Positions 27-51,463 of a DNA stretch of 64,000 nucleotides are shown piece by piece (the first letter of the stretch is position 1; each line of letters starts with the position of its first letter). Under the pieces are notes generated by a model that ran no database searches, was not told the origin of the DNA, and saw only the letters and a list, made by a program, of their open reading frames with translations. The position numbers and the translations under genes were made by a program. Origin of the DNA: Terriglobales bacterium (GTDB taxonomy: Bacteria; Acidobacteriota; Terriglobia; Terriglobales; Acidobacteriaceae); assembly GCA_035483045.1 (NCBI GenBank), contig DATHQD010000035.1, positions 35,921 to 99,920 of the forward strand, in the 5' to 3' direction.

Positions 27-1097
27 ATGTCCGTTGCTTCACCCGATTTGAGGTGCTCAACCCAAGTAAAACGATGCAGGTTCCAATCCGCCCAATGGGT
101 TGGCGCGCTATTCATTGCCATTCACCTCTTAATGGCCGCAACCGCCCACGCCCAGGGCGGACCACCCTTCCGCACCGACGACCCCGAAACCCCCGGCAAC
201 AAGCATTGGGAAATCAACTTCGGCTGGATCGGCGACCGCAATCCCGCCGACGGCGCCTATCAGGTCCCCGACTTCGATTTCAACTACGGTCTTGGCGACC
301 GCATTCAGTTGAAGTACGAACTTCCCATCGCCATCGAAGAAACCCGCCCGCAGCCCGCGACCCCACCCGCCCCCGCAGTCCAAGGCCAGGTCATCGGCGG
401 CCTGGGCGAAAGCCTCCTCGGAATCAAGTGGCGTTTCTACGAACATCATCCAAAAGATCCCTGGCTCAAAGATCGCTTCGGCACTGGACTCCCCGCCGTC
501 TTCGGCCATCACGCAGATACAGATAAAGACCAAACCGAGCCCGCCGCGGCCTCCGGCGACTCCCCCGGAGAAGAAGACTCTCCCGAATCCGTAGTCAACT
601 TGAGCGTATCAACCTATCCGCAATTATTTCTCAACAACCCCACGCGTGCCGTCGAGCGCGGCTTAGTAGCCTCCGGCCCCACTTTCTTTCTTCCCCTCGA
701 AGTCAACGGTCGCATCGGCCCTATACGATTGCTAGGCGAGGTCGGCTACAACTTCGGTAACCACTCCGTCCCTCAGAGTTGGGGACGCGGCTTATTGGTT
801 GGCCATGAATTCAGCGATCGCACCGAGGCTTACCTCGAACTCTACGACGTCCAGGACGCGAACCGCATTCCTCCCGGCCTGGGTGTGGGAAATTTCGCCA
901 CCGGTTATCCCAAGCAGCGCGAAACCACAATTGGCCTGGGTGGAAGACAAGCTCTCAACAAAGCGAAAACTCTAAACCTGCTCCTAATGGGAGGCCGCAG
1001 CTTCCAAACCATCACCACCACCAACGGCCAGCCCAGTTGGATCGCCTACGTCGGATTTCAGGTTCTCCTAGGCCCGAAAGAACCAGCCACACCTTAG
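27..1097 (+). CDS. putative outer-membrane beta-barrel protein (MetA-phenol-degradation-like transporter family), signal peptide
   Basis: 356-aa ORF. Hydrophobic N-terminus ends in AHAQG and is followed by GPPFRTDDPETPG. The Gly/aromatic pattern looks beta-strand-like. Family assigned from memory only. Confidence 0.45.
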   Translation: MSVASPDLRCSTQVKRCRFQSAQWVGALFIAIHLLMAATAHAQGGPPFRTDDPETPGNKHWEINFGWIGDRNPADGAYQVPDFDFNYGLGDRIQLKYELPIAIEETRPQPATPPAPAVQGQVIGGLGESLLGIKWRFYEHHPKDPWLKDRFGTGLPAVFGHHADTDKDQTEPAAASGDSPGEEDSPESVVNLSVSTYPQLFLNNPTRAVERGLVASGPTFFLPLEVNGRIGPIRLLGEVGYNFGNHSVPQSWGRGLLVGHEFSDRTEAYLELYDVQDANRIPPGLGVGNFATGYPKQRETTIGLGGRQALNKAKTLNLLLMGGRSFQTITTTNGQPSWIAYVGFQVLLGPKEPATP

Positions 1098-1110
1098 CCT
1101 TTGGAAGGCC

Positions 1111-1157
1111 GGGTGCCCCATCCTTAACGTCGCGCTCTTTGCGACGTTAGGGTGGGG
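1111..1157 (+). repeat. REP-A copy (GGGTGCCCC-first orientation)
   Basis: GGGTGCCCCATCCTTAACGTCGCGCTCTTTGCGACGTTAGGGTGGGG forms an imperfect hairpin. Confidence 0.8.
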
Positions 1158-1243
1158 AATTTGATCTCACATCTAGAAGCGACGGGAATCCAACTGCGCC
1201 TTCGGGCGCTGAGGCCCATTCCGCCGCCGGCAAACTTCCCACC

Positions 1244-2305
1244 CTACTTCCGCCCCACAACAATCACTTCAAAACTATCCGGCAGCACAGTCGGCCGCGG
1301 ATGCGGCATCTGCGCCGTCGCCTCCGGAGCCGGCCCAAACTTCGCCGTCACCAGATAAACGCGATCCTTCGCGTCGTCGTAAGTCATCGTCCGCGCCCCG
1401 CGCGCCGTCGGCAGCTCTTCGATAGCCTTATATCCGTTCGCCGCGTCCACCACCGTCAACGAGCCCGCTCCATTCGAGCTGAACGCCAGCTGATGCTTCG
1501 CGCTGAAATTCGCCGCATCCGGCCCTTCGCCAATATCCGCCGTCGCAATCTGCTTCCCGCTATCCGCATCGACCACCGCCATTTTCTTCCCATCGCAAAC
1601 CGCAAACAGCTTCCGATGCTCGCGATCCATAGCCAGCCCAGACGGCGACTCGCAATTTTCCAGCTTCCACGTGGCGGTTATCTTCCGCGCCTTCGCATCA
1701 AAGCGCACAATCTCATTAGCCGTCTCGATATTGTCGTAAACCGAACCCTTACCATCCGCAACCGCAAACTCCGGCTTCCCCGGAACGTCAATCGTCGCGA
1801 CCACCTGATTCGTCGCCGCATCAATCACCGTGACGTTGCTGCTGCGCCCGTTGAAAGCCCACACGCTCTTGGTCGACGGATCAAACACAATCCCATCCGG
1901 ATTAGTTCCCGCCGCGATCGTAGTAACGGTCTGAAAGGTGTGCCGGTCAAATACCACAACGTTGTTGCTCCCGCCGTCGCTGATGTAACCGAATTTCCCC
2001 TGCTCATCCAGCGCAACCCCGTGCGTCCCCTTCATCCCCATGATCGCTCCGACCGCCTTGCCCGTATCCGTATCGATCACTTCCACCCGCGGCCCGTGCG
2101 TGACATAAACAAGATGATTAGCCGAGTCGGCCAGCAGATAATCCCAACCGCCCGTGCCACCAATTTTCCAGTGATCCAATATCTGATACGGCTGTTGCGC
2201 CGCCGCCGAGGCACCCAACATCCCAACGCACGCAGCGATTGCGCCGACTAACCCTACCCCGACAAGAACAAAGCGGTTGACCATATTCATAGTTTTCCTA
2301 TCCAC
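1244..2305 (-). CDS. YncE-like beta-propeller repeat protein (YVTN-type repeats), secreted
   Basis: 353-aa ORF with a signal peptide and repeated ~40-aa units (YVTHGPRVEVIDTDTGK, VVVFDRHTFQ, VTVIDAATNQVV). Confidence 0.7.
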   Translation of the reverse strand: MDRKTMNMVNRFVLVGVGLVGAIAACVGMLGASAAAQQPYQILDHWKIGGTGGWDYLLADSANHLVYVTHGPRVEVIDTDTGKAVGAIMGMKGTHGVALDEQGKFGYISDGGSNNVVVFDRHTFQTVTTIAAGTNPDGIVFDPSTKSVWAFNGRSSNVTVIDAATNQVVATIDVPGKPEFAVADGKGSVYDNIETANEIVRFDAKARKITATWKLENCESPSGLAMDREHRKLFAVCDGKKMAVVDADSGKQIATADIGEGPDAANFSAKHQLAFSSNGAGSLTVVDAANGYKAIEELPTARGARTMTYDDAKDRVYLVTAKFGPAPEATAQMPHPRPTVLPDSFEVIVVGRK

Positions 2306-2360
2306 CTCAGATGTGTGTACGCCCTACTTTCTACCACGACGACCTTAAAATTTGCTGAAA

Positions 2361-2728
2361 CCGAGGGTGCCCCATCCTTCCCGCGCACTTCGCGGGAGGG
2401 TGGGCCGCGAATTCTTTATTCACCCCACCGTCGACAGCCTCACAATAGTCAGCGTGCCTTAGCGCCCTTCGTGTACACAACCAAACCCGAGGGTGCCCCA
2501 TCCTTCCCGCGCACTTTGCGGGAGGGTGGGCCGCGAAATTCTCTATTCACCCCACCGTCGACAGCCTCACAATAGTCAGCGTGCCTTAGCGCCCTTCGTG
2601 TACACAACCAAACCCGAGGGTGCCCCATCCTTCCCGCGCACTTCGCGGGAGGGTGGGCCGCGAAATTCGCCGAATCACTCCGCTGTCGGCAGCCTCACAA
2701 TAATCAACGTCCCGCGCCCTGCTTCACT
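2361..2728. repeat. tandem repeat, 126-127 bp unit x ~2.9; each unit is a degenerate histidine-kinase 3-prime end plus REP-A
   Basis: Unit starts (CCGAGGGTGCCCC) are at 2361, 2487 and 2614. REP-A hairpins lie at 2365-2405, 2491-2531 and 2618-2658. On the minus strand the unit tails read GTLTIVRLSTVG*, against the real kinase end GTLIIVRLPTAE*. Confidence 0.9.
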
Positions 2729-4084
2729 CTCGACCGCAATGGTCCCGTGCGACCTCTCTACAATCGCCTTGCATATCGCCAATCCCAACCCGGTTCCTCC
2801 GCTTTGCCGGCCGCGCGACCCGTCTGTCCTATAGAAGCGCTCAAAAATATGCGCCTGCGCGCTCTCCGGAATTCCATCCCCCCGGTCCGCCACCCGCATC
2901 TCCGCCGTCCCATTCTGCGCCGTCAAAGAAACCGTAACCTCCGCCCCAGCCGGACTATGCTGCACCGCATTCATCAAAAGATTGGAACTTAAAATCTCGG
3001 CATCGCTAGCCTGGACACTCACAAGGCACGCCCCGTCTCCAATGACGCCGATCTTAACCTGATTAGCCTCCGCCAACGGCTTCAGCCGCTGAGCCAGCAA
3101 TCGCACCGTGATTCCCAGGTCAACCACCTCCGCCGGCTTTTCTCCTTCTTCCTCAATCCGCGCCAGCGCCAGCATCCGTTCCGTCAGTTCCTCCATGCGC
3201 TGTATGTCGATGGTCAGATCCCTCAGTCCCGCTTCATACTCCTCCGCATTCCGCCGCCCCATCGTCAACAATTGCAGACTCGACTTCAGCAGCGTGAGCG
3301 AAGTCTTCAACTCATGCGCCGCATCGCCCGTGAATCGCCGCTGCCGCTCGAACGCTTCCCGCAATCCCCCGAGCAACTGCCGCATCGACAAAATGATCGG
3401 ATTCAACTCGCGCGTCCGCAGCGCATTCTCCGTCGGCGCGAACTCCCACGATGTAACCGATACCCGCGACGCACTCAGCGCCAGCTCCCGCAACGGCGCC
3501 AGCCATCGCCCTAAAAGCCACGCCAGCACTGCTCCCGTAACCGCCAGCAGCAGCACGCTCGTCAGAACATAAAACCGAGCCGCCTCCACCACCTCACGAA
3601 AAAGACGCCGCGTCGGAGCTCCATAAATCAGCGTAACCGGCCGCCGCGTCCCCCCATTCTCCAGCCGGTCAATCACCCGCACGCCTTCCGTACGAAGCAC
3701 CCGATAATGAACTCGCCCCACCTTAATATCGAAATATCCTTCGCTTTGCGATAATCGCTGCGACGCCCCAGGCCCGCGCAGTGCCCGCGCGTCCGCATTC
3801 TCCGACTCCCCCAACAGCCGCCCCGTCGGACTCAACACCTCATAAATATCCTCGTCCGGCAGCACCAGTTCGCTGCGGTCCACTGTCACATTTGCCTCCG
3901 GATCGTCCGCATCCTGCACCGCTCCCAGCAACGAATCCGCGCGCCCCCGCAACATGACGTCGAACGCTCGCCGCCGCACATGCATCTCATGCACAATCGC
4001 TACCACCGCAAATCCAGCCGCGCACAACGACTCCGCCAGCAGCACTGCAACAATCAGCCGTCGCGTCAGCGATCGCATCCTCAT
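2675..4084 (-). CDS. two-component sensor histidine kinase (HAMP/HisKA/HATPase)
   Basis: H-box AAHELKTSLT, N-box NLLMNAVQHS, G1 DRGDGIP and G2 GGTGLGLAI, plus two TM segments. Confidence 0.9.
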   Translation of the reverse strand: MRMRSLTRRLIVAVLLAESLCAAGFAVVAIVHEMHVRRRAFDVMLRGRADSLLGAVQDADDPEANVTVDRSELVLPDEDIYEVLSPTGRLLGESENADARALRGPGASQRLSQSEGYFDIKVGRVHYRVLRTEGVRVIDRLENGGTRRPVTLIYGAPTRRLFREVVEAARFYVLTSVLLLAVTGAVLAWLLGRWLAPLRELALSASRVSVTSWEFAPTENALRTRELNPIILSMRQLLGGLREAFERQRRFTGDAAHELKTSLTLLKSSLQLLTMGRRNAEEYEAGLRDLTIDIQRMEELTERMLALARIEEEGEKPAEVVDLGITVRLLAQRLKPLAEANQVKIGVIGDGACLVSVQASDAEILSSNLLMNAVQHSPAGAEVTVSLTAQNGTAEMRVADRGDGIPESAQAHIFERFYRTDGSRGRQSGGTGLGLAICKAIVERSHGTIAVESEAGRGTLIIVRLPTAE

Positions 4085-4092
4085 AACTTCAG

Positions 4093-4779
4093 CTATAACT
4101 TCGGCTCCGGAGCTTCCAACCTGTAACCGCGCCCCCGCACCGTCTCCACCGTCGCCTCTTCACCCGCCGCCCGCAGCCGCTTTCGCAGGTTCGACACATG
4201 CGCTTCAATCACGTTCGAATGATGTTCCCACGTGTAATCGTAAAGATGCTCCAGCAGCTCCCGCTTCGACACAATCGCCCGCGGACGAAACATCAGATAC
4301 TCCAGAATTCGATACTCCGTCGGCGAAAGATCGATCAACTGCCCGCCGCATCGCACCGTCTGCTCCACCGCATTCATGCTGAGCCGCCCCACCGTCAGCA
4401 AAGAATCCGCCGCACCCTTTCCCCGCCGGATCAGCGCCTTCACCCGGGCAATCAATTCGCCCAGATCAAACGGCTTCGTCAGATAGTCGTCAGCCCCCGC
4501 ATTCAAAAGCGTCACCACATGTCTCCGCTCATCCCGAGCCGTCAGCACCAGAATAGGAGTTCGATCGCCGCGCGCGCGCACCCGCCGCACAATACTCAGC
4601 CCATCAAGCACCGGCAGCATCAAATCCAAAAGCAGCAAATCATAGTGCTCCGATTCCGCCAGCGCCAACCCCTCCCGCCCATCGTGCGCACAATCCACCG
4701 CAACCCCGGCCCCCTGCCGGAGCGCCGCAGCTATATTCGCCGCCAGCCGAACTTCATCCTCAACAATTAAGACCCGCAT
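4093..4779 (-). CDS. OmpR-family response regulator
   Basis: Receiver domain (MRVLIVEDE..DLLLLDLMLP..TKPF) plus a winged-helix C-terminus (GYRL). Lies 8 bp upstream of the kinase. Confidence 0.9.
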   Translation of the reverse strand: MRVLIVEDEVRLAANIAAALRQGAGVAVDCAHDGREGLALAESEHYDLLLLDLMLPVLDGLSIVRRVRARGDRTPILVLTARDERRHVVTLLNAGADDYLTKPFDLGELIARVKALIRRGKGAADSLLTVGRLSMNAVEQTVRCGGQLIDLSPTEYRILEYLMFRPRAIVSKRELLEHLYDYTWEHHSNVIEAHVSNLRKRLRAAGEEATVETVRGRGYRLEAPEPKL

Positions 4780-4818
4780 TCAGCGATCAGAACCCTTTGG
4801 GCCGTACCGGACTCCACT

Positions 4819-6396
4819 TTACTTCCCAATGCAAAACGTCCCGAAAATTAGATTAAGTATGTCGTCGCTAGTAGTCGCCCCAGTAATTTCGTCAAGTGGC
4901 CGCAACGCTCCATACAAATCAAGCAGCAACATTTCATGCGGAACGCGTAATCCCACCGCCCCAATCGCCGCCTCCAGCGCGCCCAGCGCATCACTAACAA
5001 GTTTCTGATGCCGAACGCTGGTAAGAAAACCAGCCTCCGCCTGCCCACCAGGATCCCCACCGAGATGCCCCAAAATGGCCGCCCGCAACTCAGCAATCCC
5101 CGCCCCACTAACCGCCGAAGTAGAAATCCGCACCACCGGCTCACCCGCCAAACCCACATCCAAACATTCACCGTCGCCCGCCACGTGCCCACCGTCGCCC
5201 GCCAAACTCACGTAGGGGCAGACGCCCTCGTCTGCCCGAGCCGGGCGAAGCCCGGCAGCGCTCTCCCCCAATCCGCCAATAAGATCGCTCTTGTTCTCGA
5301 CAACAATCGCCGCTCGACCCGTAACCCGCCTGAGTAACTCCCTATCTTCCTCACTTACCACCTGCGAAGCATCAATAACCACTAGCACTAAGTCCGCGTC
5401 CGCCAGCGCCTCCATCGACTTCTTGATCCCTATACTCTCCGCTTCATCCAGTGCCCGCCGAATCCCAGCCGTGTCCACCAGTTCCACAGGAATTCCACCG
5501 ATCGCCACCGTCTCGCTCACTAGATCTCGCGTAGTCCCCGGCTGCGCCGTCACAATCGCTCGCTCCCGCTCCACCAGCCGATTAAACAAACTCGACTTCC
5601 CCACATTCGGACGCCCCACAATCGCCAGCGTCAGCCCCTCACGCACAATCTGTCCATACGCAAAACTAGCCGCCAGCTCCACCAGCGGCGTCTTCACCTG
5701 CCCGATGCGCTCCACAATCGTAGCGTCCGGAGCCACCGATACATCGTCGTCCGCAAAATCAATCCCCGCCTCCAGCAGCGCAATCAAATCCACCAACTTC
5801 TGCTTAATCGGCTTCAGCCGATTCGAAAGCGCGCCCTCCAGTTGCTGCGCCGCCACCTTAGCCTGAAAAAGCGTCTGCGAATCAATCAAATCCCGGACCG
5901 CCTCCGCCTGCGTCAAATCAATCCGCCCGTTAAGAAACGCGCGCATAGTAAATTCGCCCGGCTCCGCCAGCCGCGCCCCGCCAGCCATCGCCATCTCAAC
6001 AACATGCCGCAAAACCACCGGCGACCCATGCGCCGAAATCTCCACAATATCGTCGGTAGTATAAGAATGAGGCGCAGCAAAAAAAGTAACCACCACCTCA
6101 TCAATCCGCGATTGCGGTTCGATCAATACTCGCGTAGGGGCAGGTGTCCCCACCTGCTCAGCCGAGCGAAGCTCGGCAAAAAGGCCGGCGTCCGTAGAAA
6201 TCCCCGCGTCCGCTAAGCTCGGCCCGCCAGCCTCCACCAGATCACACCGAACCGCCCGTCCCGCTTCCCACTCCCGCCCGAGCCGCAGCATCCGACCCGC
6301 AATACCCCGCGCCTCCGGCCCCGCCAGCCGCACCACGCCAATCCCTCCGCGCCCCGGAGGCGTAGCAATCGCCACAATCGTGTCATCAAGATTCAT
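4819..6396 (-). CDS. mnmE: tRNA modification GTPase MnmE (TrmE), 525 aa with two in-frame REP-B-containing insertions
   Basis: N-terminus [20 protein letters not shown]-domain [12 protein letters not shown] and DTAGIR, C-terminal FCIGK. About 70 aa longer than the E. coli protein as I recall it (454 aa). Confidence 0.95.
5212..5256 (+). repeat. REP-B copy inside mnmE (forward)
   Basis: GTAGGGGCAGACGCCCTCGTCTGCCCGAGCCGGGCGAAGCCCGGC. Translated in the mnmE frame it reads [13 protein letters not shown]. Confidence 0.85.
6134..6177 (+). repeat. REP-B copy inside mnmE (forward)
   Basis: GTAGGGGCAGGTGTCCCCACCTGCTCAGCCGAGCGAAGCTCGGC. Translated in frame it reads [16 protein letters not shown]. Confidence 0.85.
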
Positions 6397-14785: not shown

Positions 14786-14818
14786 CGCCTGCAGAAATCA
14801 CGCCCCCGCGAAAATCAC

Positions 14819-14886
14819 GTAGGGGCAGAGCCTGCCCTGAGCTTGCCGAAGGGTGCCCTCACCTGCCCAGCCGAGCAAAGCTCGGC
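14819..14886 (+). repeat. REP-B long form (forward)
   Basis: GTAGGGGCAGAGCCTGCCCTGAGCTTGCCGAAGGGTGCCCTCACCTGCCCAGCCGAGCAAAGCTCGGC. Confidence 0.85.
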
Positions 14887-14954
14887 AAATCCTTCGAGCC
14901 GCCGAAGTCCCCGCCCCGCTCAACTTTGCGTGCAGCTGAAACATTCCGCACGCC

Positions 14955-16373: not shown

Positions 16374-16391
16374 AATTTCCCCTTTTCCAGA

Positions 16392-16456
16392 TGTCATCCT
16401 GAGCGCCGCAGAACGATTCGCGAAGCAATCGCTCTGCTGAGTCGAAGGACCCCTAC
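16392..16456 (+). repeat. REP-C full (forward)
   Basis: TGTCATCCTGAGCGCCGCAGAACGATTCGCGAAGCAATCGCTCTGCTGAGTCGAAGGACCCCTAC. Confidence 0.85.
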
Positions 16457-16468
16457 CGTCACCATCCC

Positions 16469-23294: not shown

Positions 23295-23309
23295 TCCCGC
23301 CAAAATCAC

Positions 23310-30928: not shown

Positions 30929-30987
30929 CCACGCACCCCATAAAATCGCAGCATAAATTCCCGTTAAATCGGAGCATAAATTCCCGT

Positions 30988-31053
30988 TGTCATCCTGAGC
31001 GCAGCGACGCCATACGCGAAGCGGATGACGTAGCGAAGTCGAAGGACCCCTAC
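30988..31053 (+). repeat. REP-C full (forward)
   Basis: TGTCATCCTGAGCGCAGCGACGCCATACGCGAAGCGGATGACGTAGCGAAGTCGAAGGACCCCTAC. Confidence 0.85.
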
Positions 31054-31928: not shown

Positions 31929-31969
31929 GGACAAGACGGACGAGGCCATCAGGCGCTGGGTCTTCAGGG

Positions 31970-32030
31970 TTAGCTTTTCCTGGCTTTAGCTTTTCCAGGT
32001 TTTGCTTTTCCCGTTTCTAAGTTTTTCCTG
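31970..32030 (-). repeat. REP-F low-complexity array (CTTTTCC orientation on the + strand)
   Basis: TAGCTTTTCCTGGCTTTAGCTTTTCCAGGTTTTGCTTTTCCCG.. Confidence 0.6.
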
Positions 32031-32066
32031 CGACCTGTGACCTAAGTCCTGTCACCTGGATTTTCT

Positions 32067-36870: not shown

Positions 36871-36905
36871 AAAGCGCAACGAAATAAAAGGATCGCAATG
36901 CTCGC

Positions 36906-36974
36906 GTAGGGGCAGAGCCTGCCCTGAGCTTGCCGAAGGGTGCCCTCACCTGCCCAGCCGAGCGCCAGCTCGGC
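36906..36974 (+). repeat. REP-B long form (forward)
   Basis: GTAGGGGCAGAGCCTGCCCTGAGCTTGCCGAAGGGTGCCCTCACCTGCCCAGCCGAGCGCCAGCTCGGC. Confidence 0.85.
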
Positions 36975-37034
36975 CGCACTCCGCGAGCTATCGCAAAAGC
37001 GCTAGATCGAATTTCGATTTACAAGCGAGCGCGC

Positions 37035-39319: not shown

Positions 39320-39374
39320 GCGCTATTGTCCCACGCCTCTGCTGCGCAGCTCCCTAAGGCATCAAAAATCTACG

Positions 39375-39439
39375 TGTCATCCTGAGCGCAGCAGAACGAT
39401 TCGCGAAGCGATCGTTCTGCGGAGTCGAAGGACCCCTAC
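39375..39439 (+). repeat. REP-C full (forward)
   Basis: TGTCATCCTGAGCGCAGCAGAACGATTCGCGAAGCGATCGTTCTGCGGAGTCGAAGGACCCCTAC. Confidence 0.85.
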
Positions 39440-39534
39440 CTAACCACAAACCCCGCGCTGCAACTTTTCAAAGGGACGGGTGTATCTCGTTTGCACATTG
39501 ACGCAATTCCAGCGGGTGATTACAGGCAGCGCCA

Positions 39535-40464
39535 CTACTCAACCCGCTCGCCCGATCGCGGCCGATATCCATTAATAAATTCCTGCGCCGTCATCCGCCG
39601 CTTTCCCTCCATCTGTACCTCAAGCAACTCCAGCGCCGCCGTGCCATCTCCGCAACCAACCATCAGCCGCGATCCCTCAACCAAAATTTCGCCCGAAGCA
39701 ACCCGCGCATCCACCACCCGCGCCCGATGCACGCTCAAAGTCTTCCCCTTAAAAGCCGTAAACGCCCCCGGCCAGGGCTGAAACCCGCGCAGCCGATCCA
39801 ATAAATTCCGCGCCGCCCGCGAAAAATCCATCCGCCCATCCTCCTTTCGCAAAATGGGCGCCAGCGTAGCCCGCGCATCATCCTGCGCCACCGCCCGCAC
39901 TGCGCCACTCTCCAGCCCGCGCAGCGTCTCGACCATCAACGCCGCGCCCATCGAAGCCAGCCGAGGCCCCAGCGTCTCCCCCGTATCCTCCGCATCAATC
40001 GCCATCTCGCGCTGCAGCAAAATGTCGCCCGTATCCAGCCCCGCATCAATCCGCATCGTAGTCGCGCCCGTCACCGTTTCCCCATTCGCAATCGCCCATT
40101 GAATCGGAGCCGCCCCGCGATACTTCGGCAACAACGACCCATGCAGATTCAAATTCCCCAGCCGAGGCAACTCAATCATCCACTGCGGAATAATCCGCCC
40201 ATACCCCACCACAACAATCGCGTCCGCCCGAATCCCCTCCAGCCGCGCCCGAAACTCCAAATTGTTTTTGATCGCCGCCGGCTGCGCCACCTCAATCCCC
40301 AACCGCAAAGCCGCATCCTTCACCGGAGAAAAGCTGACGTCCATTCCCCGCCCGCGGCCTCGATCCGGTTGCGTGACAACGAGAGGAAGCGAATGCCCAG
40401 CCAGAACCAGAGCATCCAACGTAGGAACCGCAAAAGAAGGAGTCCCGCAAAAAACCAGAATCAT
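39535..40464 (-). CDS. fmt: methionyl-tRNA formyltransferase
   Basis: MILVFCGTPSFAVPTL..NLHGSLLPKYRGAAPIQWAI. The first 17 codons of the track ORF lie in the REP-F palindrome and are excluded. Confidence 0.92.
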   Translation of the reverse strand: MILVFCGTPSFAVPTLDALVLAGHSLPLVVTQPDRGRGRGMDVSFSPVKDAALRLGIEVAQPAAIKNNLEFRARLEGIRADAIVVVGYGRIIPQWMIELPRLGNLNLHGSLLPKYRGAAPIQWAIANGETVTGATTMRIDAGLDTGDILLQREMAIDAEDTGETLGPRLASMGAALMVETLRGLESGAVRAVAQDDARATLAPILRKEDGRMDFSRAARNLLDRLRGFQPWPGAFTAFKGKTLSVHRARVVDARVASGEILVEGSRLMVGCGDGTAALELLEVQMEGKRRMTAQEFINGYRPRSGERVE

Positions 40465-40471
40465 AAGAAAA

Positions 40472-40633
40472 CAGGAAAAGCGAGGAACAGGAAAAGCAAG
40501 AACCAGGAAAAGCAAGAAACGGGAAAAGCTGGAAACAGGAAAAGCCTTTCCTGTCTTTTGCTTTTCCTGGGTTTTGCTTTTCCTGCTTTTTGCCTTTCCT
40601 GGTTCTTGCCTTTCCTGTTCCTCGCTTTTCCTG
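40472..40633. repeat. ~160-nt REP-F palindrome filling the def-fmt spacer
   Basis: The left arm is CAGGAAAAGCGAGGAACAGGAAAAGCAAGAACCAGGAAAAGC... The reverse complement of the right arm is CAGGAAAAGCGAGGAACAGGAAAGGCAAGAACCAGGAAAGGC... Confidence 0.85.
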
Positions 40634-40642
40634 CTTCCCGCC

Positions 40643-43604: not shown

Positions 43605-43664
43605 CCAGATACAACCCAACTCGCGCCGGGGACGGCCGCCCTCGGCCGTCAAAGCGAGGCTCAC

Positions 43665-43732
43665 GTAGGGGCAGAGCCTGCCCTGAGCTTGTCGAAGGGT
43701 GCCCTCGCCTGCCCAGCCGAGCAAAGCTCGAC
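43665..43732 (+). repeat. REP-B long form (forward)
   Basis: GTAGGGGCAGAGCCTGCCCTGAGCTTGTCGAAGGGTGCCCTCGCCTGCCCAGCCGAGCAAAGCTCGA. Confidence 0.85.
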
Positions 43733-43772
43733 TCCAGTTGTCACCGGCAAGATTTCAAACTCCTTTTTCCGC

Positions 43773-43837
43773 TGTCATCCTGAGCGCAGCAGAACGATTC
43801 GCGAAGCGATCGTTCAGCGGAGTCGAAGGACCCCTAC
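43773..43837 (+). repeat. REP-C full (forward)
   Basis: TGTCATCCTGAGCGCAGCAGAACGATTCGCGAAGCGATCGTTCAGCGGAGTCGAAGGACCCCTAC. Confidence 0.85.
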
Positions 43838-43869
43838 CTTCACCCTCCCGACCAACGCAACCTGCCTCT

Positions 43870-44621: not shown

Positions 44622-44674
44622 CGAAAGAGGAAATCAGGAAAGGAAGCGTTTGCCAAGAAGAAAACTGCTTTAAA

Positions 44675-44739
44675 TGTCATCCTGAGCGAAGCAGAACGAT
44701 TCGCGAAGCGAGCGTTCTGCGAAGTCGAAGGACCCCTAC
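44675..44739 (+). repeat. REP-C full (forward)
   Basis: TGTCATCCTGAGCGAAGCAGAACGATTCGCGAAGCGAGCGTTCTGCGAAGTCGAAGGACCCCTAC. Confidence 0.85.
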
Positions 44740-45033
44740 TTAACCCACCGTGCGATTCGTCCACAACACGGCTCAAGAGGCTGCGAAAAAATTCAAATTT
44801 CGTTGCAACGGCATCGCTTTAGCAACGCCGCCTGTCTTCGTGAGAAGACGCTCCCTCGCGGAGAGCACGCCACCGTCATCCGCCTTCTTCCGCAGCCTCT
44901 TCAACCGTGCTGCCAATCCCCGCTTGCGGCCAATAAAGATGCGCCCAACCCGCCAACGGTTTACTCGTCACTCTCATTCTTAAACTTATTTATTCCCCCT
45001 TAACTCATTTATTCCTCGCGAATATTTCTGACT

Positions 45034-45098
45034 TGTCATCCTGAGCGCAGCAGAACGATTCGCGAAGCGATCGTTCCGCAAAGTCGAAGGACCCCTAT
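45034..45098 (+). repeat. REP-C full (forward)
   Basis: TGTCATCCTGAGCGCAGCAGAACGATTCGCGAAGCGATCGTTCCGCAAAGTCGAAGGACCCCTAT. Confidence 0.85.
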
Positions 45099-45128
45099 CC
45101 TCCGATGCGAGCCGAACAACCAAAAACT

Positions 45129-46145: not shown

Positions 46146-46217
46146 CCCCCAAAATCTCGAATTCGCCTTAACCCCACGCTCCGCTAAAATCATGCGAACG
46201 ACAAACGACCGCCCTCC

Positions 46218-47090
46218 ATGCAAACCGCCCGCATCTCCGCCCTACTAGAACCCTTCCTAATCCATCCGCTCTCCGAACAGCAGCTAAATCAAATATCGAT
46301 ATACATCGATCTATTGCAACGCTGGAACGCCCGCATCAACCTGACCGCCATCCGCACCGAAGAAGAAATAGTAACCCGCCACTTCGGCGAATCCCTATTC
46401 CTGGCCCGCCACGTATTTCCAAATGTGGAGCGGACACTCCTGTCCGCTGAAGCCAACTCCGCCGACATTCCGGCCCGGCCAATCTCCCGAAATCAATGTC
46501 ATCCTGAGCGGAGCCAGGGCATGCGCGAAGCCGATGCCACGGCGGAGTCGAAGGACCCCTACTCGACCAATCAAGCAACGCGCGCTATAGAAAAAGCAAG
46601 CCCGCCCGAGAGCGTAAAGGACACCCGAGATCTAAGCGGTTCAACTGGGTACTGGGTACCGGCTACTAGGTACTGTAAGGTCCTGGATATAGGCTCCGGA
46701 GCCGGATTCCCCGCTCTACCCCTAAAAATCTGGGCCCCTGAGATCCACCTCACCCTGATCGAATCCAACCACAAAAAATCCGCCTTCCTTAAAGAGGCAT
46801 CCCGAGCCCTTACATTCACTAACGTCAATATAATGGCCGAACGAACCGAAGCCCTCCTGGCACGCCCCGACCACCCCCAAGCCGAAGTAGTAACCCTAAG
46901 AGCAGTCGAACATTTCGAAGCCGTCCTCCCCCAGTCCGTCAGTTTCCTGGCCGCAAAAGCCACTCTAGCCCTTCTCATAGGAACGTCTCAACTCCGCTCC
47001 CTAACCATTCAAACCTCCATGAATTGGCAATCACCGATCCCCATACCCAGCTCAAATACCAGAGTGCTAATTATCGGACGAGCGAATTAG
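46218..47090 (+). CDS. rsmG: 16S rRNA (guanine527-N7)-methyltransferase RsmG (GidB), 290 aa with a ~85-aa in-frame repeat-derived insertion
   Basis: The N-terminal region (LLQRWNARINLTAIRTEEEIVTRHFGESL) and the SAM motif (KVLDIGSGAGFPALPLKI..LIESNHKK..VTLRAV) are separated by REP-D/REP-C-encoded sequence. Confidence 0.85.
   Translation: MQTARISALLEPFLIHPLSEQQLNQISIYIDLLQRWNARINLTAIRTEEEIVTRHFGESLFLARHVFPNVERTLLSAEANSADIPARPISRNQCHPERSQGMREADATAESKDPYSTNQATRAIEKASPPESVKDTRDLSGSTGYWVPATRYCKVLDIGSGAGFPALPLKIWAPEIHLTLIESNHKKSAFLKEASRALTFTNVNIMAERTEALLARPDHPQAEVVTLRAVEHFEAVLPQSVSFLAAKATLALLIGTSQLRSLTIQTSMNWQSPIPIPSSNTRVLIIGRAN
46425..46448 (+). repeat. REP-D inside rsmG (forward)
   Basis: GTGGAGCGGACACTCCTGTCCGCT, read in frame as VERTLLSA. 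Confidence 0.75.
46497..46562 (+). repeat. REP-C full inside rsmG (forward); last forward REP in the window
   Basis: TGTCATCCTGAGCGGAGCCAGGGCATGCGCGAAGCCGATGCCACGGCGGAGTCGAAGGACCCCTAC, read in frame as CHPERSQGMREADATAESKDPY. Confidence 0.85.
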
Positions 47091-47238
47091 TGGATAAATT
47101 GCCATTGCACAAACATAGAAGTGGAAAACGAGGCCAATTGTAGCGCAATAATGACATTATAAGTGGCGGATAAACGGGTAATGCACCTTGAGGCGCAACG
47201 CAGGTCGCACCATGAACTAGGCGAACATGAAGCGAAAA

Positions 47239-47254
47239 TGTTCCACGTGGAACA
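47239..47254. promoter_or_regulatory. parS: parS site 1 (perfect palindrome)
   Basis: TGTTCCACGTGGAACA, against the canonical TGTTNCACGTGAAACA. Confidence 0.85.
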
Positions 47255-47290
47255 TTCTTCCCGTCCTGAAGCAAAGCTAGTGCTCTTGTA

Positions 47291-47306
47291 TGTTCCATAT
47301 GGAACG
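47291..47306. promoter_or_regulatory. parS: parS site 2 (variant)
   Basis: TGTTCCATATGGAACG. Confidence 0.7.
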
Positions 47307-47347
47307 TATTGGTGGCCACCTACCGGGGGTTACTGATCAAGAAGTAG

Positions 47348-47363
47348 TGTTCCACATGGAACA
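47348..47363. promoter_or_regulatory. parS: parS site 3 (variant)
   Basis: TGTTCCACATGGAACA. Confidence 0.8.
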
Positions 47364-47447
47364 TTCATCGACTTGCATCATAATCCGGCATTGCTTTCGC
47401 CGGATCTTTCTAATATTCTGGCGCGCAATAGACAGAAAGAAACAATC

Positions 47448-48233
47448 ATGGGACGTGTCATTGCTGTTGCCAACCAGAAGGGTGGCGTTGGGAAGACTAC
47501 GACTGCCATCAACCTTGCAGCATCTTTAGCCGCCGCCGAAGTCAATACGTTGCTGGTTGACTGCGATCCGCAGTCCAACTCTACCAGTGGTCTTGGGTTG
47601 GTGAAGGATCCGGAACGGATCAGCATCTACGATGTTTTGATGGGGGCGGCTTCGGCTGAGGAGGCGCTTCAGCTTACCGAGCTCGAGCAACTTTGGCTGA
47701 TCCCTTCCCATAAGAACCTTATCGGGGCGAACCTCGAGCTGGTCTCGGCGGAGCGGAGGGAGTACCGTCTGCGCGATGCGCTCGCTCCGTTGCTTGATCG
47801 ATTTCAGTTCCTCGTGCTGGATTGTCCTCCGGCATTGGACCTTCTGACTTTGAATTCGCTGGTGGCGGCGGATGGAGTTTTGATCCCTATGCAGGCGGAG
47901 TACTTTGCTTTGGAGGGAGTGTCGGAGCTGCTCGATACTATAGAGAGGATACGGGTCGAGTTGAATCCTGGACTGGCCATCGAAGGCGTGGTGCTGACTA
48001 TGTTTGATGAGCGGACTAATCTAGCTCAGCAGGTGGCGGAGGAGTTGAAAAAATATTTTGGGGATAAGTTGTGCACCACTACGATCCCGCGGAACATACG
48101 GCTGGCGGAGGCTCCCAGTCATGGGCTGCCGGCGCTGGTGTATGACGTTCGGTCGAGGGGGGCGGAGAGTTATATACGGCTGGCTAAAGAGATTTTGGAT
48201 CGACAGGCGGGGGCAGCTCAGGGAGCCGCTTAG
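47448..48233 (+). CDS. parA: chromosome partitioning ATPase ParA/Soj
   Basis: MGRVIAVANQKGGVGKTTTAINLAASLA (deviant Walker A). Uses the internal ATG of track ORF 47373..48233. Confidence 0.95.
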   Translation: MGRVIAVANQKGGVGKTTTAINLAASLAAAEVNTLLVDCDPQSNSTSGLGLVKDPERISIYDVLMGAASAEEALQLTELEQLWLIPSHKNLIGANLELVSAERREYRLRDALAPLLDRFQFLVLDCPPALDLLTLNSLVAADGVLIPMQAEYFALEGVSELLDTIERIRVELNPGLAIEGVVLTMFDERTNLAQQVAEELKKYFGDKLCTTTIPRNIRLAEAPSHGLPALVYDVRSRGAESYIRLAKEILDRQAGAAQGAA

Positions 48234-48310
48234 ATTGATGATGCTAAATATTTATGTACATCGATATAAACTATAGGCTTGGACGGGTGTTCCGGTCGTG
48301 GCCGACAGTT

Positions 48311-48349
48311 CCCGCCCTTCCGCAAAGTGCGCGGAAGGATGGGGCACCC
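48311..48349 (-). repeat. REP-A (reverse); first reversed REP
   Basis: CCCGCCCTTCCGCAAAGTGCGCGGAAGGATGGGGCACCC. Confidence 0.8.
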
Positions 48350-48396
48350 ACTTTTAATTCAGCGAGAATGCGGCCGCCGCAGAAATTATGGCGGAG

Positions 48397-48462
48397 GTAG
48401 GGGTCCTTCGACTGCGCCACGGCATCCGCTTTGCGGATGATGTGGCTTCGCTCAGGATGACA
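48397..48462 (-). repeat. REP-C full (reverse)
   Basis: GTAGGGGTCCTTCGACTGCGCCACGGCATCCGCTTTGCGGATGATGTGGCTTCGCTCAGGATGACA. Confidence 0.85.
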
Positions 48463-48476
48463 GTTTTACGAGGGGA

Positions 48477-49577
48477 GTGATGATCACTATGGCGAATGTG
48501 GCGGCTGATTCGAAGAATTCGGAGAAGGTGGCGGAGAAGCGGCGGGCTTTGGGGCGAGGGTTGGAATCGCTTTTGCCTGGGCCGCGGGTTGTGATTGCTC
48601 CGCCCACCCTTCCGCAAAGTGCGCGGAAGGATGGGGCACCCGCGGAGAACAGTTCTCAGCTGTCAGTCGTCAGTTCTGAGGCTGCGAGTGCTGGTTCTCA
48701 GGCAGTCGTCGAACCTCCCGCGGGTGCGGTTGCTGGAACGGTGGCGCAGATACAGGCGGCGGCTTCGGGGCAGAGTGCTGACATGGGCGTGCAGTTATTG
48801 GCGATTGATTTGATTGAGCGGAATCCTTATCAGACGCGGTACGAATTTAAGAAAGAGGCGTTGGAGGAACTGAGCAGATCGATCAAGGCGCAGGGAGTGT
48901 TGCAGCCGATTGTGGTGCGTCCGGGGGCGGAGGGAAAGTTCGTACTGATTCTGGGCGAGCGGCGGTTGCGGGCTTCGATCCTGGCGGAGATGGCGACGAT
49001 CCCGGCGTTTGTGAGGCGGGTGTCGGAGCAACAAGCGGCGGAGATGACGCTGGTTGAGAACCTGCAGCGGCAGGATCTGAACTGCATAGAGCAAGCGGAG
49101 GCGTTCGCGACCTTGAGCACGCAATTCAAGATGACGCAGGAGGAGATTTCCGCGCGGGCTGGGATCTCGCGAGAGACGGTGACGAATTACATGCGGCTGC
49201 TGAACCTGCCGCACAGCGTGATTGGAGCGCTGCAGACGGGGAAGCTTTCGTATAGCCACGCGCGCGTGCTGTTGCAACTGCGGGACGATGCGGAGATCTG
49301 GAAACTGGCGGAGAAGGTGATGGAAGAGAAGCTGTCGGTGGGGAAACTTGAGGAGTTGGTGGTGGGGAGCGGGTTGCCGAGGCCGGGGTCGGTGCACAAG
49401 TCGGGCGGGGCGCGGTGGGTGGATCCGAATGTGAAGGCGGCGCAGAGGTCGCTTGAGGAAGTTTTGGGGATGCGGGTGCGGATTGCTGACCGTAGAGGTA
49501 GAGGGAAGATTTCGATTGAGTATGCGACGCTAGAGGATTTTGATCGGGTGGTGGGGATGCTTAAGGGGAAGGGGTAG
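48477..49577 (+). CDS. parB: chromosome partitioning protein ParB/Spo0J with an expanded, partly REP-encoded N-terminal linker
   Basis: RRALGRGLESLL .. LIERNPYQTRYEFKKEALEELSRSIKAQGVLQPIVVR..GERRLRA .. HTH. The start is one of GTG 48477, ATG 48480 or ATG 48489. Confidence 0.93.
   Translation: MMITMANVAADSKNSEKVAEKRRALGRGLESLLPGPRVVIAPPTLPQSARKDGAPAENSSQLSVVSSEAASAGSQAVVEPPAGAVAGTVAQIQAAASGQSADMGVQLLAIDLIERNPYQTRYEFKKEALEELSRSIKAQGVLQPIVVRPGAEGKFVLILGERRLRASILAEMATIPAFVRRVSEQQAAEMTLVENLQRQDLNCIEQAEAFATLSTQFKMTQEEISARAGISRETVTNYMRLLNLPHSVIGALQTGKLSYSHARVLLQLRDDAEIWKLAEKVMEEKLSVGKLEELVVGSGLPRPGSVHKSGGARWVDPNVKAAQRSLEEVLGMRVRIADRRGRGKISIEYATLEDFDRVVGMLKGKG
48602..48641 (-). repeat. REP-A inside parB (reverse)
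   Basis: GCCCACCCTTCCGCAAAGTGCGCGGAAGGATGGGGCACCC, read in frame as PPTLPQSARKDGAP. Confidence 0.85.
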
Positions 49578-49598
49578 GTCGCGGGGGGAAATGCAGAG

Positions 49599-49670
49599 GA
49601 CAGGAAAGGCAAAGACCAGGAAAGGCAAAGACCAGGAAAGGCTAGAGTCGGCAAAGGCAGGAGCGGCAGG
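49599..49670 (+). repeat. REP-F low-complexity array (GGAAAGG orientation)
   Basis: GACAGGAAAGGCAAAGACCAGGAAAGGCAAAGACCAGGAAAGGC.. Confidence 0.6.
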
Positions 49671-50031: not shown

Positions 50032-50218
50032 ACTTCTAATGTATGTATCGCGGTCAGGAACGCCACATCGAGGATTTGGTCTTTTATCGCAGCGGTGAAC
50101 CGCTGCGCTGACCAAAAACCTGGTGCTAGAGCCACATTTTTCTTGGCGGGCTAGGGGGCTGTCCCACTTTTTACTCTGTTGGTTCTTCCTTTGATTTCGC
50201 GGGCTGAGGCTTAGTGGG

Positions 50219-50286
50219 GCCGAGCTTACGCTCGGCTGGGCAGGTGGGGGCGCCCTTTGACAAGCTCAGGCAGGCTCTGCCTCTAC
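50219..50286 (-). repeat. REP-B long form (reverse)
   Basis: GCCGAGCTTACGCTCGGCTGGGCAGGTGGGGGCGCCCTTTGACAAGCTCAGGCAGGCTCTGCCTCTAC. Confidence 0.85.
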
Positions 50287-50318
50287 GCGAGTTTGGCGGA
50301 GAGCCCGGGAGATCAAAA

Positions 50319-51257: not shown

Positions 51258-51323
51258 GCGGGCTTCGCTCGCTGGGCAGGTGAGGGCACCCTTCGACAAG
51301 CTCAGGGCAGGCTCTGCCCCTAC
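51258..51323 (-). repeat. REP-B long form (reverse)
   Basis: GCGGGCTTCGCTCGCTGGGCAGGTGAGGGCACCCTTCGACAAGCTCAGGGCAGGCTCTGCCCCTAC. Confidence 0.85.
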
Positions 51324-51463
51324 GCGAGTGTGGCGGGGGATCTCGCACTCAAAAATAAATGACAGATGAAATTTGGTGGGCGGCGACGAGGGCGATTCAC
51401 TAACTGATACTTTGAGGGGTTGAGTTTTGGTATTGTCGCTGGACTGAAGATTTGTGAGGCGAT

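What the first reader, a model, noticed from the sequence alone, without database searches (positions are those of the whole stretch)
5143..5286. Second in-frame REP-B insertion, in the MnmE G-domain
Between NKSDL and [14 protein letters not shown] the protein has about 48 residues ([48 protein letters not shown]), where E. coli has about 14. Nucleotides 5212-5256 are a REP-B copy translated as [13 protein letters not shown]. The two insertions together account for essentially all of the ~70-aa excess length (525 aa against 454).
Basis: partly seen in the sequence, partly recalled or inferred. Interest (0 to 1): 0.65.

Follow-up and report, generated by a model that had tools for sequence, protein, structure and literature searches.

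The report
In-frame REP repeat inside mnmE
A short palindromic repeat that normally sits between genes is inserted, in frame, in a surface loop of the GTPase domain of the tRNA-modifying enzyme MnmE; this kind of event is known, but related soil Acidobacteria carry such repeats in the same two MnmE loops many times over.

Summary
mnmE (4819-6396, minus strand, 525 aa) has 49 residues between the G4 motif NKSD and the strand before G5 (TSA), where E. coli has about 15.

Bases 5212-5256 are a perfect two-hairpin copy of a GTAG-headed REP family with 16 copies in the window. With its conserved 5' flank the copy spans 5201-5257, which is 19 codons. It is read antisense as [15 protein letters not shown].

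The other 18 extra residues are not REP core. They come from a window-specific 54-nt duplication of the REP's 5' flank.

In 160+ Terriglobales orthologues this loop and the N-domain loop both vary greatly in length. They carry this REP in both orientations and at least three reading frames, and other repeat families as well. Outgroups keep a 15-16 aa loop.

The G-loop copy is old. It is shared by the window's clade and has since been deleted, duplicated or nested into in different lineages. It is independent of the N-loop copy.

Best reading: a tolerated in-frame passenger in a permissive loop, so a new member of a known kind (Rickettsia RPEs, intragenic GTAG REPs).

Unexplained: the retained copies keep their hairpins and stay more similar than the gene's synonymous sites.

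The parts
4819..6396 (-). mnmE coding sequence, 525 aa, intact. G1 GRPNVGKS, G3 DTAG, G4 NKSD, G5 TSA and the C-terminal FCIGK are all present.
   Evidence: Codon-position identity to orthologues is 0.94/0.98/0.83 for positions 1/2/3, which shows purifying selection.
5284..5295 (-). G4 motif NKSD (residues 368-371), at the end of strand beta5
   Evidence: The AF2 model has a strand at 363-369.
5257..5283 (-). Loop segment LIGGLGESA (residues 372-380) between G4 and the REP. The part next to the REP (AGCGCTC) is shared with orthologous copies.
5212..5256 (+). REP core with its GTAG strand on the + strand. It is read antisense by mnmE as [15 protein letters not shown] (residues 381-395).
5216..5237 (+). 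Hairpin 1: 9-bp perfect stem GGGCAGACG / CGTCTGCCC with loop CCCT
   Evidence: DNA fold -21.3 kcal/mol for the element, z = -4.97. Covariation.
5240..5256 (+). Hairpin 2: 7-bp perfect stem GCCGGGC / GCCCGGC with loop GAA. This G-C variant is the only one in the window; the other copies have GCCGAGC/GCTCGGC.
5200..5211 (+). Conserved 5' flank of the REP (CGCCAAACTCAC; 11 of 12 bases match the copy at 23298). It encodes VSLA (residues 396-399).
   Evidence: family D1; the profile match starts at 5201
5144..5207 (.). Zone of the window-specific 54-nt (18-codon) expansion. Direct repeats CCCGCCAAAC lie at 5144-5153 and 5198-5207. A nested 15-nt repeat CACCGTCGCCCGCCA lies at 5169-5183 and 5190-5204. 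The zone encodes most of [19 protein letters not shown]. The expansion is absent from L001, which otherwise has the same flank.
5113..5121 (-). G5 motif TSA (residues 426-428), after strand beta6
6123..6180 (+). The other REP copy in mnmE, in the N-domain loop. It has the same orientation but a different reading frame ([16 protein letters not shown]) and was acquired independently.

Best explanation
A GTAG-headed, two-hairpin REP element was inserted into the variable surface loop between G4 (NKSD) and G5 (TSA) of the MnmE G domain. This happened in an ancestor of the window's clade.

The element is normally extragenic. It has 16 copies in this 64-kb window.

The copy survives for three reasons. 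Its length keeps the reading frame: 57 nt including the conserved flank, helped by one extra base between the hairpins. The antisense frame used has no stop codon. The loop tolerates extra residues.

The REP is therefore translated as a passenger peptide of 15-19 residues in a working enzyme.

The site then went on changing by in-frame indels. The window's lineage gained 54 nt by duplicating the REP's 5' flank. Sister lineages deleted the hairpins or received nested repeat insertions.

Shown here: family membership, in-frame reading, intactness of the gene and selection on it, the distribution among orthologues, and independence from the N-loop copy.

Inferred: selective neutrality of the peptide, and mobilisation by a single-strand (Y1/HUH, RAYT-like) transposase.
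For: REP identity:
- The head and hairpin pattern occurs 11 times against 0.09 expected.
- The 13-copy family D1 includes this copy.
- A leave-one-out profile hits 5201-5257 at E = 1.5e-11.
- The element folds into two perfect hairpins, z = -4.97.

The host gene is functional:
- It is a single 525-aa ORF with full MnmE architecture.
- All G motifs and the CIGK motif are invariant in 57 relatives.
- Identity to orthologues is 0.94/0.98/0.83 at codon positions 1/2/3.

It is an insertion, not ancestral sequence:
- The outgroup Terriglobales loop is 15-16 aa (LRSSQFSVLGSQLPRV), as in E. coli. None of the outgroup loci checked has a REP-B hit in its flanks.
- 53 = 16 + 19 (REP) + 18 (duplication).

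The copy is shared and old. The same orientation, the same junction (GCCCGGC-AGCGCTC) and the same G-C variant of hairpin 2 are found in WIN, L002, L081, L162 and L165. L164 has the same orientation and hairpin-2 variant.

Later changes at the site:
- Deletions in L001, L161 (microhomology CCGCC), L167 and L082.
- Nested inserts in L003, L163 and L166.
- A 54-nt duplication in WIN.

The loop is permissive and the peptide is not constrained:
- The loop is 11-84 aa long across 155 orthologues.
- REP-B occurs in both orientations, 36 '+' and 8 '-', and in at least three frames.
- Other repeat families sit in the same loop.
- The AF2 model shows coil with pLDDT below 50 between beta5 and beta6.
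- The published MnmE-MnmG interfaces do not involve the G domain (PMC12397908).

Precedent: in-frame intragenic GTAG/CGTC REPs and Rickettsia RPEs (PMC3733652; PMC3184786).
Against: - Copies that keep the REP are better conserved than neutrality predicts. REP-core identity is about 0.8-0.9 where third-codon-position identity of mnmE is 0.41-0.48. Both stems stay 98% paired, with six pairs changed on both sides. This points to nucleotide-level constraint, gene conversion or re-insertion. There is an ascertainment caveat: decayed copies were excluded from these comparisons.
- mnmE holds 83 of 123 REP-B profile hits in loci with a called gene, on about 25% of the sequence. None of the 40 flanking hits looks to be inside a real gene, judged by eye from the translations without homology searches. 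Mere tolerance may not be the whole story.
- Translation of the insert, and the activity of this MnmE, were not tested.
- No transposase was identified.
- The AF2 model is poor overall (mean pLDDT 53).
Confidence: 0.8

Rival explanations
1. The in-gene REP is not just a passenger. Its hairpins or its sequence are kept by selection as a DNA or RNA element. Possible roles are a protein-binding or replication-related site near the origin, an mRNA stabiliser, or a translational pause between G4 and G5. Alternatively, it is kept uniform by gene conversion from, or replacement by, other REP copies.
For: - REP-core identity stays at about 0.8-0.9, at third codon positions too (13 of 15 for L165), where the gene's third positions are 41-48% identical.
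- Stems are 98.3% paired, with 59 cells changed on both sides, and 0 of 500 shuffles reach this.
- Orthologous copies differ by compensatory pairs, for example G-C to A-T at alignment columns 7 and 24 between WIN and L002.
- The G-C variant of hairpin 2 is found almost only inside mnmE: 27 of 29 cases.
- mnmE is about 6-fold enriched for REP-B hits compared with its flanks.
Against: - About half of the lineages descended from the same insertion have deleted or degraded the hairpins and still keep an intact mnmE: L001, L161, L167, L082, L020 and L026.
- Only copies that are still recognisable were compared, so there is ascertainment bias.
- The covariation may predate insertion, because stem variants exist as REP subfamilies (PMC3733652).
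- Both orientations occur, so no single RNA structure or strand is required.
- The 144-nt mRNA segment folds no better than shuffled sequence, z = +0.67.
- There is no terminator-like tail and no Rfam match.
Confidence: 0.15
2. The inserted peptide has been recruited for a protein-level function in MnmE, such as a new interaction surface or regulation of G-domain dimerisation.
For: The insert has persisted across a clade with 76-83% protein identity. The hairpin-2-encoded AGLRPA is invariant in the closest copies.
Against: - That invariance is at the nucleotide level, not specific to amino acids.
- Loop length and sequence vary greatly.
- The REP is read in at least three frames and both orientations in other lineages.
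- Sister lineages lost it.
- The segment is predicted to be disordered.
Confidence: 0.04
3. The feature is an artefact (misassembly across a repeat), or the gene is a decaying pseudogene.
For: Short-read soil assemblies break at the REP, and no contig from runs X1-X4 spans it.
Against: - Orthologous in-frame REP copies with the same junctions occur in many independent assemblies, some on contigs of megabase length.
- The ORF is intact, with all catalytic motifs and a purifying-selection pattern.
Confidence: 0.01

Closest known systems
Rickettsia palindromic elements (RPE; Ogata et al. 2000, Science 290:347; cited in PMC3733652 and PMC3184786)
   Same: Short palindromic repeats inserted in frame into conserved protein genes. 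They leave the ORF open and the protein presumably functional. They sit in loops, and orthologues lacking the insert exist.
   Different: - The sequence is unrelated. RPEs are 105-146 bp (PMC3184786); Di Nocera's CGTC families match RPE-4 and RPE-6. This element is a 45-57 nt GTAG-headed double hairpin.
- The host is a free-living soil Acidobacterium, not a reduced intracellular genome.
- Here the same two loops of one gene were colonised repeatedly, in both orientations and by several repeat families.
Intragenic GTAG-tagged REPs (Di Nocera, De Gregorio and Rocco 2013, PMC3733652)
   Same: An unpaired GTAG head followed by a G+C-rich stem-loop. Many dispersed, mostly extragenic copies. Stem variants with complementary changes. 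Occasional in-frame copies encoding about 20-30 aa in known proteins. The authors also suggest that inserts lie in flexible loops.
   Different: - That survey lists GTAG REPs in Proteobacteria, Cyanobacteria, Chloroflexi and the PVC group. For Acidobacteria it reports only TIR-flanked tyrosine transposases.
- MnmE/TrmE does not appear in its supplementary files.
- This element has two different hairpins in tandem plus a conserved 12-nt 5' flank.
REP/REPIN-RAYT systems (Nunvar 2010; Bertels and Rainey 2011; Ton-Hoang 2012; reviewed in PMC6006769)
   Same: A GTAG-headed palindrome family. Copy orientation follows GC-skew polarity in the window. That is the pattern expected for single-strand transposition at replication forks.
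   Different: - Copies are singletons, not inverted doublets.
- No RAYT gene was found in the window.
- The Y1 transposases described for Acidobacteria (class 3, 'CnGA' foot) do not obviously match a GTAG head.
BRE repeats of Bordetella, and RUP/SPRITE fusions to ORFs (reviewed by Delihas 2011, PMC3184786)
   Same: Small repeats found inside protein-coding sequences or fused to their ends.
   Different: These are different element types and sizes. No recurrent use of one loop across an order has been reported for them.

Membership tests
GTAG-tagged REP (repetitive extragenic palindrome) | Short G+C-rich imperfect palindrome able to form a stem-loop | tested here: met
   9-bp and 7-bp perfect stems; DNA fold -21.3 kcal/mol, z = -4.97. 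The element is a double hairpin of 45 nt, slightly longer than the classical 20-40 bp.
GTAG-tagged REP (repetitive extragenic palindrome) | Unpaired GTAG tetranucleotide at one end | tested here: met
   GTAG lies at 5212-5215, directly 5' of hairpin 1, and is conserved in the window copies. 13 of 33 intragenic copies in relatives have GTGG or GCGG instead.
GTAG-tagged REP (repetitive extragenic palindrome) | Many dispersed copies, mostly between genes | tested here: met
   16 profile hits in 64 kb. 14 lie outside long ORFs or at their ends; only the two mnmE copies are deep inside a gene. Word depth at the REP reaches 1000-5600 in soil metagenomes.
GTAG-tagged REP (repetitive extragenic palindrome) | Associated RAYT (Y1/HUH) transposase gene flanked by the REPs (a REPtron) | tested here: inconclusive
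   The ORFs between the two inverted copies (50.2-51.3 kb) show no transposase-like product by eye. The other window ORFs were not scanned systematically, and a 64-kb window cannot exclude a REPtron elsewhere.
REPIN (inverted REP doublet) | Two REPs in inverted orientation a short distance apart, forming one long hairpin | tested here: not met
   Window copies are singletons 0.9-8.5 kb apart. All share one orientation on each side of 47 kb.
In-frame palindromic insertion of the RPE type (works like) | The repeat lies inside a conserved ORF, keeps the frame, has no stop codon, and orthologues without it exist | tested here: met
In-frame palindromic insertion of the RPE type (works like) | Sequence homology to Rickettsia RPE families | tested here: not met
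   The head is GTAG, not CGTC, and the length and architecture differ from the description in PMC3733652 and PMC3184786. No direct alignment to RPE sequences was run.
MnmE/TrmE tRNA-modification GTPase (host gene) | TrmE_N domain, helical domain, inserted G domain with G1-G5, and C-terminal C(I/V/L)GK | tested here: met
   Pfam PF10396, PF12631 and PF01926. PDB matches 1xzp, 3geh and 9hip. Invariant motifs.

The most novel reading that the evidence does not exclude
The two MnmE loops are preferred, recurrent landing sites for several repeat families in origin-proximal DNA of Terriglobales, not merely tolerant ones.

On this reading, the retained in-gene REP is kept at the nucleotide level. The cause would be either selection for a DNA or RNA role, or ongoing exchange with the genomic REP pool.

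This fits the perfect match between REP orientation and GC-skew polarity around a putative oriC. Together they would make this a natural system for studying replication-coupled single-strand transposition into a conserved housekeeping gene.
Probability: 0.2. Interest if true: 0.7.

Novelty: new member of a known kind. Interest (0 to 1): 0.45.

Why it matters
In-frame REP insertions show how selfish DNA can lengthen conserved proteins without breaking them. This case adds a phylum, Acidobacteriota, and a host gene, mnmE, that the main survey does not list.

Over 150 orthologues give an unusually rich natural series at one loop: insertions in both orientations and three frames, nested insertions, deletions and duplications. 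The series maps where MnmE tolerates extra sequence. It also explains the 439-536 aa length spread of Terriglobales MnmE.

There is a practical warning for annotation and phylogenetics. These loops are repeat-derived and should be masked.

If the nucleotide-level conservation and the hot-spot behaviour are real, the locus could help test how REPs choose targets and whether intragenic hairpins have a function.

Tried and rejected
- Laying soil-metagenome contigs (runs X1-X4) on mnmE to look for insert-free variants or excision. Coverage was 2-5x and fragmentary, every assembly breaks at the REPs, and the apparent 'joints' between 5227 and 6158 are cross-matches between the two REP copies. Uninformative.
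- AlphaFold2 with a 57-sequence alignment gave a poor model (mean pLDDT 53). I used it only for the positions of strands and coil, and ran no fold search.
- A protein-database search with the 47-aa loop peptide found no candidate sharing words with it. It could not show whether other protein families carry this REP.
- Tandem Repeats Finder found nothing at 5100-5300. The duplication was defined by exact 9-mers and by alignment to L001 instead.
- Rfam at E <= 1 gave no match. The promoter and terminator scan found nothing at the REP.
- RNA folding of the whole 144-nt insert is no more stable than shuffles (z = +0.67), so there is no evidence for a larger mRNA structure.
- Local synteny does not explain the two orientation classes. 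rnpA lies upstream and divergent in both classes.
- 12 long open frames around flanking REP hits looked like candidates for further intragenic copies. By eye, one is the 5' leader of mnmE itself and the rest are R/P/H-rich frames that do not look like real proteins. I ran no homology search on them.
- The ORFs between the two inverted REP copies show no transposase-like product.
- DnaA-box counts in the window are at chance level.

Full report
**1. What is at 5143-5286**

The region lies inside one 525-codon ORF on the minus strand, 4819-6396. Its product is a complete MnmE/TrmE.
- Pfam finds TrmE_N, MnmE_helical and MMR_HSR1.
- The best solved-structure matches are MnmE of T. maritima, Nostoc, E. 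coli and Chlorobium.

In those alignments two query segments have no counterpart. One is residues about 41-95 in the N domain. The other is residues about 376-416/423 in the G domain.
- E. coli residues 343-349 face query residues 376-416.
- T. maritima has 12 residues where the query has 44.

The G4 motif NKSD is residues 368-371 (5284-5295). The G5 motif TSA is residues 426-428 (5113-5121).

**2. The REP**

The window holds a repeat family with this consensus: CGCCAAAATCAC-GTAGGGGCAGGTGCCCYCACCTGCCC-AGCCGAGCRAAGCTCGGC.
- The head and first-hairpin pattern occurs 11 times, against 0.09 expected by chance.
- The repeat finder lists 13 copies (family D1).
- A profile built from ten copies, leaving out the one under study, finds 16 copies. 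One of them is 5201-5257, at E = 1.5e-11.

The copy has this structure:
- The GTAG head lies at 5212-5215.
- Hairpin 1 has a perfect 9-bp stem (GGGCAGACG/CGTCTGCCC, 5216-5237).
- Hairpin 2 has a perfect 7-bp stem (GCCGGGC/GCCCGGC, 5240-5256).
- Folded as DNA the element gives -21.3 kcal/mol, z = -4.97.

Read on the mnmE strand, 5212-5256 is [15 protein letters not shown] (residues 381-395). The conserved 5' flank CGCCAAACTCAC (5200-5211) gives VSLA.

One extra base between the hairpins (CCC-G-AGCC) shifts the reading from the 'AELRSA...' frame to the '...EGxCPY' frame. The N-loop copy at 6123-6180 has the same orientation but stays in the first frame throughout ([16 protein letters not shown]).

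**3. The rest of the excess is a local duplication**

The closest orthologue with the same flank is L001. It reads CCGCACCACCGACTCACCCGCCAAACTCAC-GTAGGG. The window has 54 more bases at this point.

These bases are bounded by direct repeats CCCGCCAAAC (5144-5153 and 5198-5207). They contain a second repeat, CACCGTCGCCCGCCA, at 5169 and 5190.

The 53-residue interval used (residues 372-424) therefore breaks down as follows:
- 16 residues, as in outgroup orthologues;
- 19 residues from the REP with its flank;
- 18 residues from a window-specific duplication of the REP's 5' flank.

**4. Orthologues**

The 120 nearest proteins are Terriglobales/Acidobacteriaceae sequences with 70-83% identity. They range from 439 to 536 aa. 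An alignment shows that nearly all length variation lies in the same two loops.

I fetched 167 loci from genomes and metagenomes. The G loop ranges from 11 to 84 aa.

A more distant clade keeps a 15-16 aa loop (LRSSQFSVLGSQLPRV). None of the clade's loci that I checked (11 loci, about 77 kb) has a REP-B hit in its flanks.

Elsewhere the loop holds REP-B in both orientations:
- The '-' orientation (AGLRPAWTAEGGRPYV) is found in the window's clade and a few others.
- The '+' orientation is read in two frames: HVGTAALGRPAERSSA, and CGDGRLARPSRAEPGR / RRDSRPRLSSRAEPGR.
- Some loops hold two copies in tandem.
- The profile finds 36 '+' and 8 '-' copies in the G loop, and 40 '+' and 17 '-' in the N loop, among 155 genes.

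Other repeat families that are multi-copy in the window's own DNA also occur in this loop in single lineages. Examples are VILS...ESKDP in L039, SRKEREKWGT in L056 and GH(D/G)FSRA in L150/L156.

Across loci with a called gene, 83 of 123 REP-B hits lie inside mnmE, which makes up 25% of that sequence. 40 lie in the flanks. 12 of those sit in long open frames. By eye, one is the mnmE 5' leader and the others are R/P/H-rich frames that do not look like real proteins. These counts are not phylogenetically independent.

**5. History of this copy**

WIN, L002, L081/L108, L162 and L165 share four features: the orientation, the right junction GCCCGGC-AGCGCTC, the extra base between the hairpins, and the G-C variant of hairpin 2. 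L164 shares the orientation and the hairpin-2 variant. That variant occurs nowhere else in the window.

Other descendants of the same insertion have changed:
- L003 and L163 carry a nested element between the hairpins.
- L166 has one inside the loop of hairpin 2.
- L001, L161 (P0003), L167 (P0008) and L082 have lost the hairpins but keep remnants such as PYVSLAG, RPHVSLA or ERGRPRV.
- The L161 deletion joins at a CCGCC microhomology.

So the insertion predates a clade whose MnmE proteins are 76-83% identical. It has since been reshaped by in-frame indels.

The N-loop REP is present only in WIN and in L081 (two copies there). L001, L002 and L003 have an empty N-loop site (CDLVEGGSRI). The two inserts are therefore independent events.

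**6. Is the gene functional?**

All G motifs and the C-terminal FCIGK are invariant among 57 relatives.

Identity to orthologues at codon positions 1/2/3 is 0.94/0.98/0.83 for L002. It is 0.88/0.91/0.41 for L165. This is the pattern of purifying selection.

The AF2 model is poor overall (mean pLDDT 53). It does place both inserts as low-confidence coil, and the G-loop insert lies between strands 363-369 and 422-427.

The published MnmE-MnmG interfaces involve the N-terminal and helical domains, not the G domain (PMC12397908).

**7. An unexplained feature**

Among 33 distinct intragenic copies, 98.3% of stem cells are paired. Six pairs show changes on both sides, and 0 of 500 shuffles reach the observed score.

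Orthologous copies differ by compensatory pairs. For example, alignment columns 7 and 24 are G-C in WIN and A-T in L002.

Where the gene's third codon positions are only 41-48% identical (L164-L166), the REP core is still 80-100% identical at each codon position. The same holds over 282 pairs.

Three caveats apply:
- Only copies that are still recognisable were compared.
- Stem variants exist as REP subfamilies.
- About half of the descendant lineages lost the hairpins.

The data therefore allow constraint, gene conversion or re-insertion, and cannot tell them apart. The whole insert as mRNA folds no better than shuffles. There is no terminator-like tail and no Rfam match.

**8. Comparison with what is known**

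In-frame palindromic repeats in protein genes were described for Rickettsia (RPEs). They were later described for GTAG- and CGTC-tagged REPs in several phyla, with the suggestion that they sit in flexible loops (PMC3733652; PMC3184786).

That survey does not list GTAG REPs for Acidobacteria, and does not list MnmE as a host.

The element meets the structural definition of a GTAG REP. It is not a REPIN doublet. Its transposase is unknown: class 3 Y1 transposases are reported in Acidobacteria, but with a different 'foot' sequence (PMC6006769).

**9. Verdict**

This is a new member of a known kind. Three points go beyond the known pattern:
- the same two loops are colonised repeatedly, by several repeat families and in both orientations;
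- mnmE is enriched for REP-B hits compared with its flanks;
- the retained copies are conserved at the nucleotide level.

Noticed in passing
window 46200-49600, switch at about 47100-47400: GC skew of the + strand flips sharply from about -0.3 to +0.3 between rsmG/gidB (46218-47090) and parA (47373-48233), with parB at 48477-49577. The AT-rich spacer holds three parS-like palindromes (TGTTCCACGTGGAACA and variants, near 47240, 47291 and 47347). This looks like an origin-proximal region and possibly oriC, although DnaA-box counts are at chance level. rpmH-rnpA-yidD-yidC (6.5-9.6 kb) point towards this site, which would put about 40 kb of + strand genes head-on to replication.
   Followed up: partly
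window, all 16 REP-B copies (5201 ... 51334): REP orientation follows the skew switch exactly. All 14 copies left of 47 kb have the GTAG strand on +. Both copies to the right (50217-50297 and 51259-51334) have it on -. This is the pattern expected for single-strand (Y1/HUH-type) transposition coupled to replication. It was not tested beyond this window.
   Followed up: partly
window about 6178-6232 (next to the N-loop REP at 6123-6180): The 114-nt N-domain insertion holds one intact REP. Next to it is what looks like a second, decayed copy in the same orientation (GTAG at 6194-6197, ending ...AAGCTCGGC). L081 has two clear copies at this site. The empty site is visible in L001, L002 and L003.
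   Followed up: partly
window 14809-14889, 36896-36975, 43657-43735, 50217-50297(-), 51259-51334(-): Composite REP-B copies carry about 20-25 nt of extra sequence (GAGCCTGCCCTGAGCTTGYCGAAGGGTGCCC) inside hairpin 1. A related composite form is the one read in frame in mnmE of L003 and L163 (…LRSGQAPEG…).
   Followed up: no
loci L001-L167, hairpin 2 of REP-B: The stronger G-C variant of hairpin 2 (GCCGGGC/GCCCGGC) accounts for 27 of 63 copies inside mnmE but only 2 of 22 copies outside it. It occurs in both orientation classes.
   Followed up: partly
window, e.g. 16381-16468, 39364-39451, 43762-43849, 44664-44751, 45023-45110, 30987-31049: A second abundant repeat family (TGTCATCCTGAGCG...GAGTCGAAGGACCCCTAC) has at least 12 copies. 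Its translation VILS...ESKDP appears in frame in the MnmE G loop of L039.
   Followed up: no
window 54814-56073 and 2358-2664: Two further repeat sets. One has four to five copies of about 90 nt ending CCCCACTTCTCGCAAAGGACGCGAGAAATGGGGCACCCGG; its translation (SRKGREKWGT, SRKEREKWGT in one copy) occurs in frame in the L056 MnmE loop as SRKEREKWGT. The other is a 127-nt unit repeated three times in tandem at 2358-2664.
   Followed up: no
window 40445-40640, 49590-49658, 53322-53390, 31967-32031: Arrays of a 16-nt unit (about AGGAAAAGCNAGRAMC) are present. At 40.4-40.6 kb they form 77-nt inverted arms that are 86% complementary. One array sits just after parB. Function unknown.
   Followed up: no
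runs X1-X3 laid on window 5190-5242 and 6144-6196: Assembler word depth at the two REPs is 36-5600 (about 1070-5600 at the G-loop copy, 36-260 at the N-loop copy), against 2-5 for the rest of mnmE. The REP family is therefore extremely abundant in these soil metagenomes, and it breaks short-read assemblies.
   Followed up: no
outgroup loci, G loop (e.g. L054, L060, L158): The REP-free loop LRSSQFSVLGSQL also expands in some lineages, by tandem repetition of an SQF/SQL-coding unit. This loop is indel-prone even without REPs.
   Followed up: no
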